A DNA stretch of 64,000 nt from contig JAYWFU010000147.1 of NCBI GenBank assembly GCA_043778625.1, positions 31,516 through 95,515 on the forward strand. Reading direction: 5' to 3'. The translations under genes were made by a program, and so were the position numbers. Within the stretch, counting starts at the first letter, position 1. Each line of letters begins with the position of its first letter. The stretch is from Bacteroidia bacterium. GTDB taxonomy: Bacteria > Bacteroidota > Bacteroidia > UBA4408. The notes beneath the pieces were generated by a model, which was not told the DNA's origin, did not search any database, and saw nothing but the letters and a program-made list of their open reading frames with translations. Of the stretch, positions 39,249 through 41,473 are shown piece by piece.

Positions 39249-39686
39249 TTAAAATGGTTGTTCTGCTGCTAATAATTCTGTGTTAATTTGTTGCTCGGTT
39301 ATTAATTCAGTATTAGGTTGTTGCTCGGTATCAACACCTGTAGTAGTTTCGTCTTTAGGCTTAGGGCTTCCTAACAACTCCACCATACCTACCTGTAGGC
39401 GCATATCAAATTTTCTAACTCCGTTTTTATCAGTGTATTCGCCTACACTTGGTTTACCCTCTACGTACACTTTAGTACCCTGTAATAAATGCGCAGCTAA
39501 CTTAGTACTTTGGTTAGCTTCTCGCCATAGGCTACAGTTGTACCACGTGGTGTTTTCTACTTTAACATTGTCGGTGTTTAGGTAGCTTTCGGTTACAGCC
39601 ACACTAAAGTTAATTACTTGGCGGTTGTTGGTTTGTTGTATTGAGGCACTTTTACCTACATTACCAATGATTGTTGTTTTTTGCAT
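39249..39686 (-). CDS. ssb: single-stranded DNA-binding protein
   Basis: OB-fold SSB pattern (TIIGNVGK...WYNCSLWRE...KVYVEGKP...) with acidic C-terminal tail. Confidence 0.8.
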   Translation of the reverse strand: MQKTTIIGNVGKSASIQQTNNRQVINFSVAVTESYLNTDNVKVENTTWYNCSLWREANQSTKLAAHLLQGTKVYVEGKPSVGEYTDKNGVRKFDMRLQVGMVELLGSPKPKDETTTGVDTEQQPNTELITEQQINTELLAAEQPF

Positions 39687-39737
39687 GATGTTTGGTTTTT
39701 TTGGTTGGTTTATAATTAATTGTTTGTTTGTTATTGT

Positions 39738-39959
39738 TTATTGATTATCCCATAGCCAATTCATATAATCGGTTGGGTGTTCGTTCATGTACCAATGTTC
39801 CCACGCTTTGTAATCAGCGTTTAGTCGCATAGTGGGTTTTATGTTTTTTATCCCCATAGGTATGGTGTAGGTAACATGGGTTTCGGTTTCGGTTATTGCG
39901 TTACACACCGCTAATAGGTTGTTGTGTATAATGTGCGTAGGCTCGTTAAATACTACCAT
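39738..39959 (-). CDS. hypothetical protein
   Basis: 73-aa ORF. Confidence 0.35.
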   Translation of the reverse strand: MVVFNEPTHIIHNNLLAVCNAITETETHVTYTIPMGIKNIKPTMRLNADYKAWEHWYMNEHPTDYMNWLWDNQ

Positions 39960-39961
39960 GG

Positions 39962-41473
39962 TTATGATGCTATACGTTTAAATTTACCATGCTCCCAATC
40001 CAATACCGCCTGCTGTTGCTTGCCGTGTTCATCTTCTTTTAATACGGCTACGGTGTGCTGCATACTCATACTAAGCATACTAAGCAACGCCCCGTATATA
40101 TCGTTAGCGTATAGGTTAGTACTGTGGTTTTTATTCATTATATTCATTTCCAACGCTCCCTTCCAGTTATGAAACACATTACGAGCATTAGTTACCACAT
40201 AGGTGTACTCCGTGCTTGGTGCGCCTGTAAGCGGGTTTACTACATCGGTACCATAATCGTTAATAGCCTCAGCCATAGCTTCGGGGCTTATGCCATTATC
40301 TTTTAACTGCACTATGTTAAGTTCCTTAACGCCGTGTAAATTGCCAAACTTACGGTACATAGGTTGGCGGTGTATGTTGGGTAGTAGTTCGCATAGCAAA
40401 TCAAAATCGTACACACCGCTATCGTCCATACATAGGGGTTTAAAATGGTATTTGATACACTCCATAATACCTGCCATAAAGTGGTTGCTGGTTACATCGG
40501 TTACGTATTTTTTTACCATAGTATCGCCCTTAGCTTCCCAAGTATATAGGTTTTCGAGGCTTATCATGGTGCTACCCTGTGGGTTAAGGCGTGCTATATA
40601 TTCATTGCTTACGGCACTTACACGCTTAGGGGTTATGGCGGGGTTACTATTCATTACACAATAGTCGGGGTTGGGCATAGTTGCCATTTTTTTAATGGCT
40701 TTAATTTGCTTGGCATCAAACTCGGTACGAGTGCTGTATTTATCAGCCGTTTGCATATTCCAGTTTTCGGTTATATCTAACAATAAATTGTTGCGGGTTT
40801 CGTAGTGTGGGTTTTTGTACACTATTAGTAAGCTATGTAAGTGTATGTGTAAGCCCTTACCAGGGTTTTTAGTAACCTCTACGCCAAACTCTCCACCCCA
40901 CACTTGTTGTTTCCAAAAGTCTTTTTTGCGCATGTAATTAAATTCCTGCATTAGTTCCTTAGCGTAAAAACGCTTATTGCGCCAACCGTGCGCCTCGTTA
41001 TGCGGTACGGTTAGGGTAAGGTGCATAAAGTTAAAATCGTTGCTGGTAATTACTTGGCCAGTGTGTTTGTCGATAAATTCGTTTTTATCAAAAAAAGCAC
41101 GGTACTTTTTGCGTAATGCTTTGCTACGCTCGGCATTGCAGTTAGGGCATAGCTTGTGCTTACACATTTGCGAGGCTATGTACTCGGTGGCTCCGTTGCT
41201 TTGGTGTACCCTGTACAGGCTGTGCGAGCAACATTGCTCTAAGTTACGGCGCAAGCCTGTAAAGTAAGGTAGCAGTTGCTCTTGGTCTAGCTTATCCACG
41301 TTAGCCACTAAGTAGCTTTGTACTACAGTGTGTAGCTTTTTAGCCTTGCGAGCGTTATTGCTTATTTTTGACGAGCGTTTGCGGTTGTTAGCCACACGTT
41401 GTTCAAACGTTGGTTTTACGGTACTCGATTCCGAGCGTTTCTTACTTATCAAGGTAGGGGTTATAGTGGGCAT
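39962..41473 (-). CDS. rolling-circle replication initiator (HUH endonuclease superfamily Rep)
   Basis: Zn-finger CCSH...CKHKLCPNC, motif I FMHLTLTVPH, motif II (HUH) LHIHLHSLL; basic N-terminal tail. Confidence 0.7.
   Translation of the reverse strand: MPTITPTLISKKRSESSTVKPTFEQRVANNRKRSSKISNNARKAKKLHTVVQSYLVANVDKLDQEQLLPYFTGLRRNLEQCCSHSLYRVHQSNGATEYIASQMCKHKLCPNCNAERSKALRKKYRAFFDKNEFIDKHTGQVITSNDFNFMHLTLTVPHNEAHGWRNKRFYAKELMQEFNYMRKKDFWKQQVWGGEFGVEVTKNPGKGLHIHLHSLLIVYKNPHYETRNNLLLDITENWNMQTADKYSTRTEFDAKQIKAIKKMATMPNPDYCVMNSNPAITPKRVSAVSNEYIARLNPQGSTMISLENLYTWEAKGDTMVKKYVTDVTSNHFMAGIMECIKYHFKPLCMDDSGVYDFDLLCELLPNIHRQPMYRKFGNLHGVKELNIVQLKDNGISPEAMAEAINDYGTDVVNPLTGAPSTEYTYVVTNARNVFHNWKGALEMNIMNKNHSTNLYANDIYGALLSMLSMSMQHTVAVLKEDEHGKQQQAVLDWEHGKFKRIAS

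What the first reader, a model, noticed from the sequence alone, without database searches (positions are those of the whole stretch)
39249..41473. SSB plus HUH rolling-circle Rep with N-terminal zinc finger and basic tail
Rep carries motif I (HLTLTV), motif II (HIHLH) and a C4-type zinc finger, and sits next to an SSB. This implies a replicative form with an ssDNA intermediate. For an integrated 18-kb element this is unusual among Bacteroidota prophages, and it supports the membrane-phage or satellite hypothesis. The basic S/K-rich N-terminal 100 aa may target the protein to the capsid or membrane.
Basis: partly seen in the sequence, partly recalled or inferred. Interest (0 to 1): 0.55.

Follow-up and report, generated by a model that had tools for sequence, protein, structure and literature searches.

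The report
Rolling-circle replication module of tailless prophage
An 18.5-kb prophage-like element in a Bacteroidota genome carries a plasmid-type (pC194-like) rolling-circle replication initiator, its own single-strand DNA-binding protein and a conserved predicted nick site at the start of the initiator gene; this is a recognisable kind of module, but it sits in a widespread, apparently undescribed group of tailless phages.

Summary
Window 39962-41473(-) encodes a 503-aa Rep_1 (PF01446, pC194/pUB110-type) HUH initiator. Window 39249-39686(-) encodes an SSB, separated from rep by a 73-aa ORF.

All 34 aligned relatives keep motif I, the His triad and E338-x3-Y342. The profile aligns to pC194 RepA (hhalign 96.7%), including the Cys4 cluster, so the "zinc finger" is ancestral to Rep_1.

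New here: a conserved ~35-nt DNA element with core CTTGATA (41447-41453, minus strand) overlaps the first rep codons. It recurs on the rep strand next to the rep start in about 40 of 63 related sequences. It matches the pC194 origin core and the phiX174 origin. It is the predicted double-strand origin.

The element (26323-44797; tRNA-Arg att, integrase, repressor) has a B204-like packaging ATPase, a jelly-roll-like capsid candidate, five TM proteins, lysin and fibre. The gene order is that of PM2-like tailless membrane phages.

RCR Rep_1/ssb modules are already known in such prophages of Proteobacteria. This is a new Bacteroidota lineage, and it is not rare (58 genomic loci).

The parts
39962..41473 (-). 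rep: 503-aa Rep_1 (pC194/pUB110-type) HUH rolling-circle initiator. Features: conserved N-terminal helix with NRKR (residues 23-58), Cys cluster 81/82-104-109-112, motif I 151-158, His triad 209/211/213, a family-specific insertion of about 243-330, motif III E338/Y342/K345, and an extra C-terminal domain of about 350-503.
   Evidence: Pfam above gathering score; invariant columns in 34 sequences; hhalign to pC194 RepA 96.7%, E 3.5e-10; AF2 pLDDT 85 with E338/Y342 on helix 330-343.
41428..41462 (-). Predicted double-strand origin (dso): CCCCTACCTTGATAAGTAAGAAACGCTCGGAAT, core CTTGATA at 41453..41447. The predicted nick is CTTG^ATA, between 41450 and 41449 on the minus (sense) strand. It overlaps rep codons about 5-17.
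   Evidence: Exact core within +-75 nt of the rep start in 17 loci against about 1.1 expected. nhmmer profile: 31 sequences at E<0.01 and about 40 including weak hits, those near rep all on the rep strand. Upstream of the ORF in 27 loci and inside it in 2 frames in 7. Same core as the pC194 origin and the phiX174 origin, annotated at A4306.
39738..39959 (-). 73-aa ORF between rep and ssb, with no homologs in related loci. This is a variable slot (L005 has a deoxyribosyltransferase-like gene there).
39249..39686 (-). ssb: 145-aa OB-fold single-strand DNA-binding protein with a C-terminal ...EQPF tip.
   Evidence: Pfam SSB E 1.9e-19 and phrog_44; SSB present in 35 of 60 Rep loci, usually directly downstream of rep; 14 of 37 SSBs end in PF.
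39058..39082 (-). Terminator-like hairpin (11-bp stem, 8 GC, then TGTGTTTTGG). It probably ends the rep-orf73-ssb transcription unit.
   Evidence: (z -4.3)
43150..43299 (-). Strongest folded non-coding DNA on the strand predicted to be displaced. It is a candidate single-strand origin, or a bidirectional terminator between convergent genes.
   Evidence: MFE -27.2 kcal/mol, z -5.4
36027..36593 (-). 188-aa P-loop ATPase, a candidate genome-packaging ATPase.
   Evidence: Family profile matches the full length only of the STIV2/STIV B204 packaging NTPases (E 1.4e-6 and 2.8e-6); weak Pox_A32 hit and phrog_2666; present in 22 Rep loci.
36593..37261 (-). 222-aa conserved protein directly upstream of the ATPase. 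Its position corresponds to PM2 ORF h (assembly factor). This is positional inference only.
   Evidence: conserved in 15 loci; gene order
34047..34772 (-). 241-aa major-capsid-protein candidate with a core of about 195 aa.
   Evidence: Conserved position after the ATPase and p60. AF2 pLDDT 61.5, beta-rich core 50-216. Best Foldseek hits are single jelly-roll coat proteins, all weak. 666 cluster representatives. No PDB or PHROG link.
31703..34982 (-). Block of five single-pass TM proteins flanking the capsid gene: 66 aa (34782-34982), 194 aa (33433-34017), 276-aa HExxH protein (32603-33433), 153 aa (32137-32598) and 143 aa (31703-32134). They are candidate virion-membrane and/or lysis proteins.
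   Evidence: hydropathy scan; conservation
31048..31542 (-). Endolysin (glucosaminidase).
   Evidence: Pfam 1.4e-24 and PHROG endolysin families
29308..30558 (-). 416-aa fibre/spike-like protein with three phage-fibre repeats.
   Evidence: PHROG tail-fibre families, E down to 4.6e-29
26261..27592 (+). tRNA-Arg (26261-26336; attL core 26323-26335) and a Bacteroidota-type tyrosine integrase (26411-27592).
43415..44519 (.). Xis-like HTH_17 protein (43415-43729, minus strand) and CI/S24-type repressor (43869-44519, plus strand).
44785..44797 (+). attR core CAATCCGGATCAC, a direct repeat of the tRNA-Arg 3' end. The element spans 26323-44797.

Best explanation
The two genes are the replication module of a temperate, tailless, probably membrane-containing phage integrated at a tRNA-Arg gene of a Bacteroidota bacterium.

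Shown: Rep is a divergent, double-sized member of the Rep_1 (pC194/pUB110) HUH family. SSB is a bacterial-type OB-fold protein. A conserved origin-like element with core CTTGATA sits at the 5' end of rep.

Inferred mechanism:
1. After integrase/Xis-mediated excision, the element is a circular dsDNA.
2. Rep binds the origin and cleaves the sense (window minus) strand at CTTG^ATA. Tyr342 becomes linked to the 5' phosphate, and the His triad holds the metal.
3. A host helicase and Pol III extend the 3'-OH. The displaced sense strand is coated by the element's own SSB, whose ...PF tip can recruit host replisome proteins.
4. After one round, Rep cleaves and rejoins the regenerated origin (Glu338 as the pC194-style termination residue). 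This releases a single-stranded circle.
5. The circle is converted to dsDNA from a single-strand origin (candidate 43150-43299).
6. The dsDNA circle is then packaged by the B204-like ATPase into a jelly-roll capsid with an internal membrane.
For: - Rep_1 above Pfam's threshold.
- Motifs I, II and III invariant in 34 relatives.
- hhalign to pC194 RepA 96.7%, with Cys cluster and motifs I and II aligned. pC194 E210-MAK-Y214 has the same spacing as E338-CIK-Y342.
- Y342-x-x-K345 lies on a predicted helix, as required of HUH enzymes (review).
- Origin element: 19 exact cores in 17 loci against about 1.1 expected; profile hits in about 40 of 63 sequences, those near rep all on the rep strand next to its start; conserved whether coding or not. 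Same core as the pC194 minimal origin and the phiX174 origin, where position 4306 gives CTTG^ATA.
- Rep-SSB synteny and a terminator after ssb.
- In L068 the same capsid family is combined with a Rep_trans-like initiator plus SSB. So SSB accompanies a rolling-circle-type initiator of either family.
- Phage nature: att, integrase, repressor, Xis; B204-like ATPase; capsid candidate; TM proteins; lysin and fibre; gene order as in Vinavirales.
- The identical Rep is seen on several metagenome contigs.
Against: - No biochemical or induction data. Nicking, the covalent adduct and the ssDNA intermediate are all inferred.
- Foldseek against the PDB gave no significant match for the Rep model, and no Rep_1 structure was found by sequence.
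- The capsid assignment rests on position, conservation and a low-confidence model (pLDDT 61.5).
- No capsid or ATPase similarity to any deposited phage.
- The att core is only 13 bp.
- The single-strand origin is only a folding candidate.
- Whether virions carry dsDNA or ssDNA is undecided.
- At least 10 related Rep-SSB loci with more than 9.6 kb of downstream sequence lack the ATPase and capsid genes. The module is therefore not tied to this virus type.
Confidence: 0.68

Rival explanations
1. The replication module is the same, but the virion packages the single-stranded circle, making this a large FLiP-like ssDNA membrane phage of about 18 kb. Rep and SSB then make the genome itself, not just an intermediate.
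For: Nearly all element genes are on one strand, with a strong AT skew across 28-44 kb. The module is a rolling-circle Rep plus SSB. ssDNA membrane phages of Flavobacteria exist (FLiP, phiCjT23). FLiP-group contigs up to 17 kb with SSB have been predicted. The predicted nicked strand is the sense strand, as in phiX174.
Against: The element encodes a B204-like packaging ATPase, whereas FLiP-group genomes lack one. PM2 and Vinavirales are dsDNA yet use RCR initiators. One-strand gene orientation is also seen in the related contigs regardless of type. There is no detectable similarity to the FLiP or phiCjT23 capsid proteins, which are in the PDB set searched.
Confidence: 0.2
2. Rep acts mainly as a relaxase. 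The CTTGATA site is an oriT and the element, or its Rep-SSB core, is mobilised by a conjugative element rather than replicated for packaging.
For: The Rep_1 proteins of pC194, pUB110 and pTA1060 can act as relaxases for ICEBs1, using the dso as oriT (review). Rep_1-like proteins occur in integrative mobilisable elements (title and abstract list). At least 10 related Int-Rep-SSB loci show no ATPase or capsid genes. One example is the ~8-kb element in Phaeodactylibacter xiamenensis.
Against: In the window the module is embedded in a complete virus-like gene set: ATPase, capsid candidate, TM proteins, lysin, fibre, CI repressor. No coupling protein or other transfer gene was detected. Rep-SSB followed by ATPase and capsid is the recurrent order in 24 loci.
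Confidence: 0.07
3. The element is a decaying cryptic prophage or a capsid-less satellite, in which Rep and SSB are relics or serve only helper-dependent amplification.
For: No experimental evidence of induction. The capsid assignment is weak. The att core is short.
Against: All core ORFs are intact and every catalytic residue is retained. The element has its own ATPase, capsid candidate, lysin, fibre, integrase, Xis and repressor. The identical rep region occurs in several independent metagenome assemblies. Free ~15-17-kb contigs of related elements exist, and one of them is circular.
Confidence: 0.05

Closest known systems
pC194 RepA / pUB110 RepU (Pfam Rep_1, PF01446), rolling-circle plasmids of Firmicutes
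   Same: Passes the Pfam threshold. The Cys cluster, motif I (xLTLTxP), the HxHxH/HUH motif and E-x3-Y-x2-K are shared. The origin core CTTGATAA(T) is the same.
   Different: Twice the size (503 against 229 aa for the pC194 ORF as read in this record), with an ~85-aa insertion before motif III, a ~150-aa C-terminal domain and a conserved N-terminal NRKR helix. Only 25-29% identity over residues about 70-280 to any plasmid Rep in PLSDB. It sits in an integrating phage-like element of Bacteroidota and is paired with its own SSB.
phiX174 gene A protein and its origin
   Same: The origin core CTTG^ATA is preceded by a C-run and followed by A/T-rich sequence ending in AAC. phiX174: CCCCCAACTTGATATTAATAAC. 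Window: CCCCTACCTTGATAAGTAAGAAAC. In both, the origin lies inside the initiator's own gene and the nicked strand is the sense strand.
   Different: No Pfam hit to Phage_GPA. There is only one invariant Tyr in motif III, not the Y-x3-Y pair (the two-Tyr trait is from my own knowledge). The window element also has SSB, integrase and a packaging ATPase, which phiX174 lacks.
PM2-like prophages (order Vinavirales; Yutin et al. 2022, PMC9502842; Yutin et al. 2018, PMC5894146)
   Same: Temperate tailless elements with the gene order assembly-factor-like gene, packaging ATPase, small protein, MCP, membrane proteins, spike/fibre, lysin. The replication module is exchangeable and can be Rep_1 (pfam01446), Rep_trans and ssb. 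The same Rep_1 to Rep_trans swap is seen here between the window and L068.
   Different: Hosts there are Proteobacteria and Verrucomicrobia; here Bacteroidota. The genome is 18.5 kb against 9-12 kb. The capsid candidate shows no sequence link to PM2 P2 or any solved capsid protein, and its ~195-aa core is too short for a typical double jelly roll.
FLiP / phiCjT23 (ssDNA membrane phages of Flavobacterium) and the FLiP group
   Same: Bacteroidota hosts, rolling-circle initiator, sometimes SSB, lysogeny in the case of phiCjT23.
   Different: Those use M13-like (CRI) or Rep_trans-like initiators. They lack a packaging ATPase, are 7.6-9.2 kb (group up to 17 kb), and phiCjT23-like prophages integrate at dif sites through XerC/D. 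The window element has Rep_1, an ATPase and a tRNA-targeting tyrosine integrase.
Simuloviridae / Sphaerolipoviridae-type viruses (two single-jelly-roll MCPs, internal membrane, 16-19 kb circular dsDNA, temperate, RCR in SNJ1)
   Same: Genome size, packaging ATPase next to the capsid genes, jelly-roll-sized capsid protein, rolling-circle replication.
   Different: Those are archaeal or Thermus viruses. SNJ1 RepA is IS91-like, not Rep_1 (reference title). They have two MCP genes, while only one candidate was found here. No sequence similarity was detected.

Membership tests
Rep_1 (PF01446; pC194/pUB110 rolling-circle initiators) | Scores above Pfam's curated gathering threshold | tested here: met
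   41.1 bits against 33.2; residues 101-262 match HMM positions 7-158. Precomputed PF01446 on most of the 77 homologs.
Rep_1 (PF01446; pC194/pUB110 rolling-circle initiators) | Motif I (xLTLTxP) and the HUH metal-binding motif | tested here: met
   H151, L154, T155, P157 and H209, H211, H213 are invariant in 34 sequences. They align to pC194 FLTLTTPN and NPHFHVLI.
Rep_1 (PF01446; pC194/pUB110 rolling-circle initiators) | A single catalytic Tyr in a YxxK/H motif on an alpha-helix, with a Glu four residues upstream (pC194 Glu210/Tyr214) | tested here: met
   E338, K341 and Y342 are invariant, with K345 following. They lie on predicted helix 330-343. The pC194 ORF has E210-M-A-K-Y214. The helix rule is from the review. 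The catalytic roles are from my own knowledge of pC194 and were not assayed.
Rep_1 (PF01446; pC194/pUB110 rolling-circle initiators) | Cognate double-strand origin with a CTTGATA-type nick core close to rep | tested here: met
   Core at 41447-41453(-). Conserved element in about 40 of 63 related sequences. pC194 origin sequence.
Rep_1 (PF01446; pC194/pUB110 rolling-circle initiators) | Site-specific nicking-joining activity and a covalent 5'-phosphotyrosine adduct | not testable with these tools
   Needs purified protein.
Rep_1 (PF01446; pC194/pUB110 rolling-circle initiators) | Compact single-domain protein of about 230-340 aa | tested here: not met
   503 aa. There is an insertion of about 243-330 and an extra C-terminal domain of about 350-503 with its own conserved residues (Y373, F376, G377, P414, T416). 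This is a size difference, not a failure of a catalytic criterion.
phiX174 A / P2 A type (Phage_GPA, two-tyrosine initiators) | Pfam Phage_GPA match and two catalytic Tyr spaced Y-x3-Y | tested here: not met
   No such Pfam hit at E<=0.1. Motif III has only one invariant Tyr.
Rep_trans (PF02486; pT181, phiCjT23-type) | Pfam Rep_trans match | tested here: not met
   No hit for the window Rep. A Rep_trans-like initiator does replace it in the related element L068.
Bacterial-type SSB (PF00436) | OB-fold domain plus a C-terminal ...PF protein-interaction tip | tested here: met
   Residues 1-104 cover the whole Pfam model. The C-terminus is ...AAEQPF. 14 of 37 family SSBs end in PF, mostly DDLPF.
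PM2-like tailless membrane phages (Vinavirales) | FtsK-HerA-type packaging ATPase next to the capsid gene, in the order ORF_h-ATPase-small protein-MCP-membrane proteins | tested here: met
   Full-length profile match to the B204 packaging NTPases. Order p222-ATPase-p60-capsid candidate-TM proteins in the window and related loci. Reference order.
PM2-like tailless membrane phages (Vinavirales) | [quoted passage not shown] | tested here: inconclusive
   No sequence link of 17- and 95-sequence profiles to any PDB capsid protein. The model has pLDDT 61.5 and resembles single jelly rolls. The family core is about 195 aa.
FLiP group / Finnlakeviridae | FLiP-type MCP, M13-like RCR endonuclease, no packaging ATPase | tested here: not met
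   An ATPase is present. The Rep is Rep_1. No capsid similarity was detected. Criteria.

The most novel reading that the evidence does not exclude
The window element represents a large, uncultured and so far undescribed family of temperate tailless phages of Bacteroidota. Its capsid protein family has 666 clusters, no PHROG and no PDB relative. The ~195-aa core suggests a single, not a double, jelly roll combined with a B204-type packaging ATPase. That would be an architecture intermediate between PM2-like and sphaerolipovirus-like viruses. Replication is by interchangeable rolling-circle modules (Rep_1 or Rep_trans, each with SSB). A bolder sub-case is that these particles package the ~18-kb single strand, which would make them among the largest ssDNA phages.
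Probability: 0.3. Interest if true: 0.72.

Novelty: new member of a known kind. Interest (0 to 1): 0.45.

Why it matters
The Rep/SSB pair itself is an ordinary rolling-circle module.

It does supply three things of use. First, a precisely predicted origin and nick site (CTTG^ATA at 41450/41449), with named catalytic residues (Y342, E338), which can be tested with an oligonucleotide assay. Second, a sequence handle (Rep, origin motif, capsid family) for a widespread group of Bacteroidota tailless prophages that is missing from phage reference sets (INPHARED, PHROGs). Third, a clear example of replication-module swapping (Rep_1 to Rep_trans with SSB retained) outside Proteobacteria. This extends the pattern reported for Vinavirales.

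It also shows how an origin embedded in a coding region can mimic a 'basic targeting tail' in the protein.

Tried and rejected
- tblastn of Rep, capsid candidate and ATPase against 50,697 deposited phage genomes: no match.
- PHROGs for Rep and the capsid candidate: nothing; 0 of 95 capsid-family members hit any PHROG.
- PDB sequence searches with Rep (single sequence and profile): nothing meaningful.
- Capsid profiles against the PDB: no link to PM2, FLiP, phiCjT23, P23-77 or PRD1 capsid proteins.
- Word-indexed homolog searches for the capsid protein returned only 1 and 6 proteins. The AF2 alignment was therefore shallow and the model weak.
- Exact CTTGATA counted over the whole window is at chance level (8 against 7.4). 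Only its position and its extended conservation across loci make it significant.
- The hairpin after ssb was considered as a single-strand origin, but it looks like an intrinsic terminator.
- Circularity of the ~17-kb relatives L005 and L006 could not be tested because only part of each contig is held. L068 (a whole contig) has no terminal overlap. Only L044 does.
- PLSDB: only seven weak partial matches to small plasmids, six from Streptococcus thermophilus and one from Cobetia. The element is not a known plasmid.
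Full report
**1. Observation**

Pfam assigns the first to SSB (PF00436, E 1.9e-19). It assigns the second to Rep_1 (PF01446) at 41.1 bits, above the curated cut-off of 33.2.

HLTLTV is at residues 151-156 and HIHLH at 209-213. Cysteines are at 81, 82, 104, 109 and 112. A 73-aa ORF (39738-39959) lies between the two genes.

**2. The Rep protein**

The word-indexed search found 77 relatives, nearly all carrying PF01446. I aligned the window protein with 33 of them, which are 22-44% identical to it.
- Invariant columns are H151, L154, T155, P157 (motif I), H209, H211, H213 (metal-binding His triad containing the HUH motif) and E338, K341, Y342, H343, F344 (motif III).
- The family profile aligns with the archetypal pC194 RepA at 96.7% probability, E 3.5e-10. 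The alignment covers the Cys cluster (CKHKLCPxCN against CKNRFCPVCA, plus the upstream Cys), motif I and motif II.
- The pC194 ORF reads E210-M-A-K-Y214, the same E-x3-Y arrangement as E338-C-I-K-Y342. That Tyr214 and Glu210 are the pC194 catalytic residues is from my own knowledge.
- The AF2 model built on the 34-sequence alignment is confident (pLDDT 85, pTM 0.81). It places E338 and Y342 on helix 330-343. This agrees with the rule that the HUH YxxK/H motif lies on a helix (review PMC5714925).

The "zinc finger" is not a special feature. It is the Cys cluster shared with pC194, and a distant clade of the family has lost it.

The protein differs from plasmid Rep_1 proteins in several ways:
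- It is about twice as long.
- It has a ~85-aa insertion before motif III.
- It has a ~150-aa C-terminal domain with its own conserved residues.
- It has a long N-terminal helix carrying a conserved NRKR.
- PLSDB holds only weak partial matches (25-29% identity) to small plasmids, six from Streptococcus thermophilus and one from Cobetia.

**3. A conserved origin at the 5' end of rep**

CTTGATA, the core of the pC194 origin (sequence in PMC7072734), occurs once on the sense strand inside the first codons of rep, at 41453..41447. Over the whole window the heptamer is at chance frequency. Across the related loci it is not.
- The exact heptamer lies on the rep strand within ±75 nt of the rep start in 17 loci. 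About 1.1 occurrences are expected from the background rate.
- The conservation extends over about 35 nt, with consensus CCCT-a-CCTTGATAAtatAGAAACg-TCGGAAt. The window reads AACCCCTACCTTGATAAGTAAGAAACGCTCGGAATCG.
- A nucleotide profile of these sites finds the element in 31 of 63 sequences at E<0.01, and in about 40 when weaker hits are included. The hits adjacent to rep are all on the rep strand, and most lie within -70 to +56 nt of the called ORF start. The core varies only as CT[T/C/A/G]GATA. The window has a single copy.
- The core lies upstream of the ORF in 27 loci. It lies inside the called ORF in 7 loci, in two different reading frames: TLISKKRSES in the window, PFLDNxET in others. The sequence is therefore conserved as DNA, not as peptide.
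- phiX174 has CCCCCAACTTGATATTAATAAC, with the origin annotated at A4306. That gives CTTG^ATA, and it too lies inside the initiator's own gene.

I therefore predict the double-strand origin at 41428-41462(-). The nick would fall between 41450 and 41449 on the minus (sense) strand. The site is not in a hairpin.

Residues about 5-17 are the translation of the origin, and residues 1-17 are predicted to be disordered.

**4. SSB and the transcription unit**

In the related loci SSB follows Rep directly, with the gap mostly between -45 and +110 nt. It is present in 35 of 60 Rep loci.

The window SSB ends in ...EQPF, and 14 of 37 family SSBs end in PF, mostly DDLPF. This is the canonical tip through which bacterial SSBs recruit partner proteins (own knowledge).

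An 11-bp GC-rich hairpin followed by a T-run at 39082-39058(-) probably terminates a rep-orf73-ssb unit.

The best single-strand-origin candidate on the displaced strand is 43150-43299, with z = -5.4. It could equally be a terminator between convergent genes.

**5. The element**

A 13-bp direct repeat (CAATCCGGATCAC) forms the 3' end of tRNA-Arg (26323-26335) and recurs at 44785-44797. This bounds an 18.5-kb unit. I estimate such a match would arise by chance in these two short flanks about 0.003 times (inference).

The unit contains:
- A Bacteroidota-type tyrosine integrase (Arm-DNA-bind_5, Phage_int_SAM_5 and Phage_integrase domains).
- A Xis-like HTH protein and a CI/S24 repressor.
- A long minus-strand block.

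The host is Bacteroidota: a flanking gene carries a T9SS sorting domain.

Local iterative HMM searches over 62 related loci define a conserved order: Rep, SSB, p222, ATPase, p60, capsid candidate, HExxH protein, TM protein, lysin.
- **ATPase.** A profile of the 188-aa ATPase matches the full length only of the B204 genome-packaging NTPases of STIV2 and STIV (E 1.4e-6 and 2.8e-6). All other PDB hits cover only the P-loop.
- **Capsid candidate.** The 241-aa protein has a beta-rich core. Its model is of low confidence (pLDDT 61.5). Its best structural neighbours are mostly single jelly-roll coat proteins, all weak.
- **Capsid family size.** The family has 666 cluster representatives at E<=1e-3, 178-341 aa long, with a core of about 195 aa. 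It has no relative in the PDB or in PHROGs.
- **Membrane and lysis genes.** Five single-pass TM proteins flank the capsid gene. A glucosaminidase lysin and a fibre-like protein follow.

This is the layout described for PM2-like Vinavirales prophages: ORF_h, ATPase, P7, MCP, membrane proteins, spike/fibre, lysin. In those, replication genes are frequently exchanged, including divergent Rep_1 (pfam01446), Rep_trans and ssb (Yutin et al. 2022; Yutin et al. 2018).

The same exchange is visible here. L068 is a complete 16.9-kb contig with the same capsid family and a Bacteroidota integrase. It carries a Rep_trans-like initiator (phrog_20614, E 2e-19) followed by SSB.

**6. Distribution**

The Rep family occurs in 58 genomic loci. 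Nearly all are Bacteroidota: Chitinophaga, Saprospiraceae, Hymenobacter, Cytophagales, Bacteroidales. Only 2 IMG/VR contigs carry it, and no deposited phage does.
- 24 of 60 Rep loci carry the ATPase and/or the capsid gene.
- At least 10 loci with more than 9.6 kb of sequence downstream of rep carry neither. One is an ~8-kb Int-Rep-SSB element in Phaeodactylibacter xiamenensis.
- A 14.8-kb contig with a 141-bp terminal overlap, which suggests a circle, carries a Rep of the distant clade.

The Rep-SSB module therefore moves between several kinds of element.

**7. Mechanism**

Shown: family membership, conserved catalytic residues, a conserved origin element, Rep-SSB synteny, and a virus-like gene set.

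Inferred:
1. The element excises to a circle.
2. Tyr342 nicks at CTTG^ATA.
3. The host helicase and polymerase carry out leading-strand synthesis.
4. SSB coats the displaced sense strand.
5. Glu338 assists termination.
6. The complementary strand is synthesised from a single-strand origin.
7. The B204-like ATPase packages dsDNA into a membrane-containing capsid.

The main rival is packaging of the single strand, as in FLiP. The ATPase argues against it, because FLiP-group genomes lack one, but it is not excluded. A relaxase role and a satellite or relic status are unlikely for this element.

**8. Verdict**

The Rep/SSB pair is a new, divergent member of a known kind: a Rep_1 rolling-circle module in a temperate tailless phage. 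Its added value is a precisely predicted origin and a handle on a widespread, apparently undescribed Bacteroidota virus group whose capsid fold remains to be settled.

Noticed in passing
window 41817-41890 (-): A tRNA-Met (anticodon CAT) lies inside the element, 344 nt upstream of rep and just before a 102-aa ORF (41487-41795). The 129-aa GTG-started ORF listed there overlaps the tRNA and is probably over-extended. Its anticodon stem lacks the three G-C pairs of initiator tRNAs (my reading), so it may be an elongator tRNA-Met or a tRNA-Ile(CAU). Of 20 related loci scanned, only L055 (3100-3173) also has a tRNA-Met.
   Followed up: partly
L068 (whole 16,906-bp contig), 2506-4395: The same capsid family and a Bacteroidota integrase, but the initiator is Rep_trans-like (weak PF02486 hit; phrog_20614 E 2e-19), followed after a 56-aa ORF by SSB. 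This is a non-orthologous replacement of the initiator with SSB retained.
   Followed up: partly
L044 (14,817 bp): The contig has a 141-bp exact terminal overlap, which suggests a circular assembly. Nearly all large ORFs are on one strand. It carries a distant-clade Rep, a DNA methylase, a transglutaminase-like 534-aa protein and a weak glucosaminidase hit, but no recognisable ATPase or capsid gene. It may be a different virus or plasmid type using the same Rep family.
   Followed up: partly
L013 about 7.4-15.2 kb (Phaeodactylibacter xiamenensis KD52): An ~8-kb integrated element lies between the host FBPase gene and T9SS-cargo genes. It holds three small ORFs, Rep, SSB, an unannotated 529-aa protein and an integrase. 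It is a minimal Rep-SSB element without the ATPase or capsid genes.
   Followed up: partly
window 32603-33433 (-): A 276-aa protein with an HEAGH (HExxH, zincin-like) motif near the N-terminus and a C-terminal TM helix. It is conserved downstream of the capsid gene in 14 loci. A membrane-anchored metalloprotease-like virion or lysis protein would be unusual.
   Followed up: no
window 29308-30558 (-): A fibre-like protein with three near-identical ~48-aa repeats (NPHGTTKAQVGLGNVDNTSDINKPVSTAQ...). The repeats match many tail-fibre PHROGs of tailed phages. It is apparently a receptor-binding module borrowed by a tailless element.
   Followed up: no
window 38603-39004 (-) and 35582-36022 (-): A DUF5618 protein (E 6e-36) and an LPD3-domain protein (E 6e-7) sit inside the element between the replication and structural modules. 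Their function is unknown. L006 also has an LPD3 protein.
   Followed up: no
window 50011-51937 (-): A low-GC island (GC 0.27-0.31) outside the element. It has a GmrSD_N (DUF262) protein (E 6.7e-25) and an adjacent unannotated 248-aa protein. This is a possible type IV restriction or defence locus.
   Followed up: partly
window 41463-41490 (-): About 22 nt upstream of the origin core there is a partial copy of it (CCCTATTGATA against CCCTACCTTGATA). It could be a Rep-binding half-site. It is not obviously conserved in L006 or L009.
   Followed up: no
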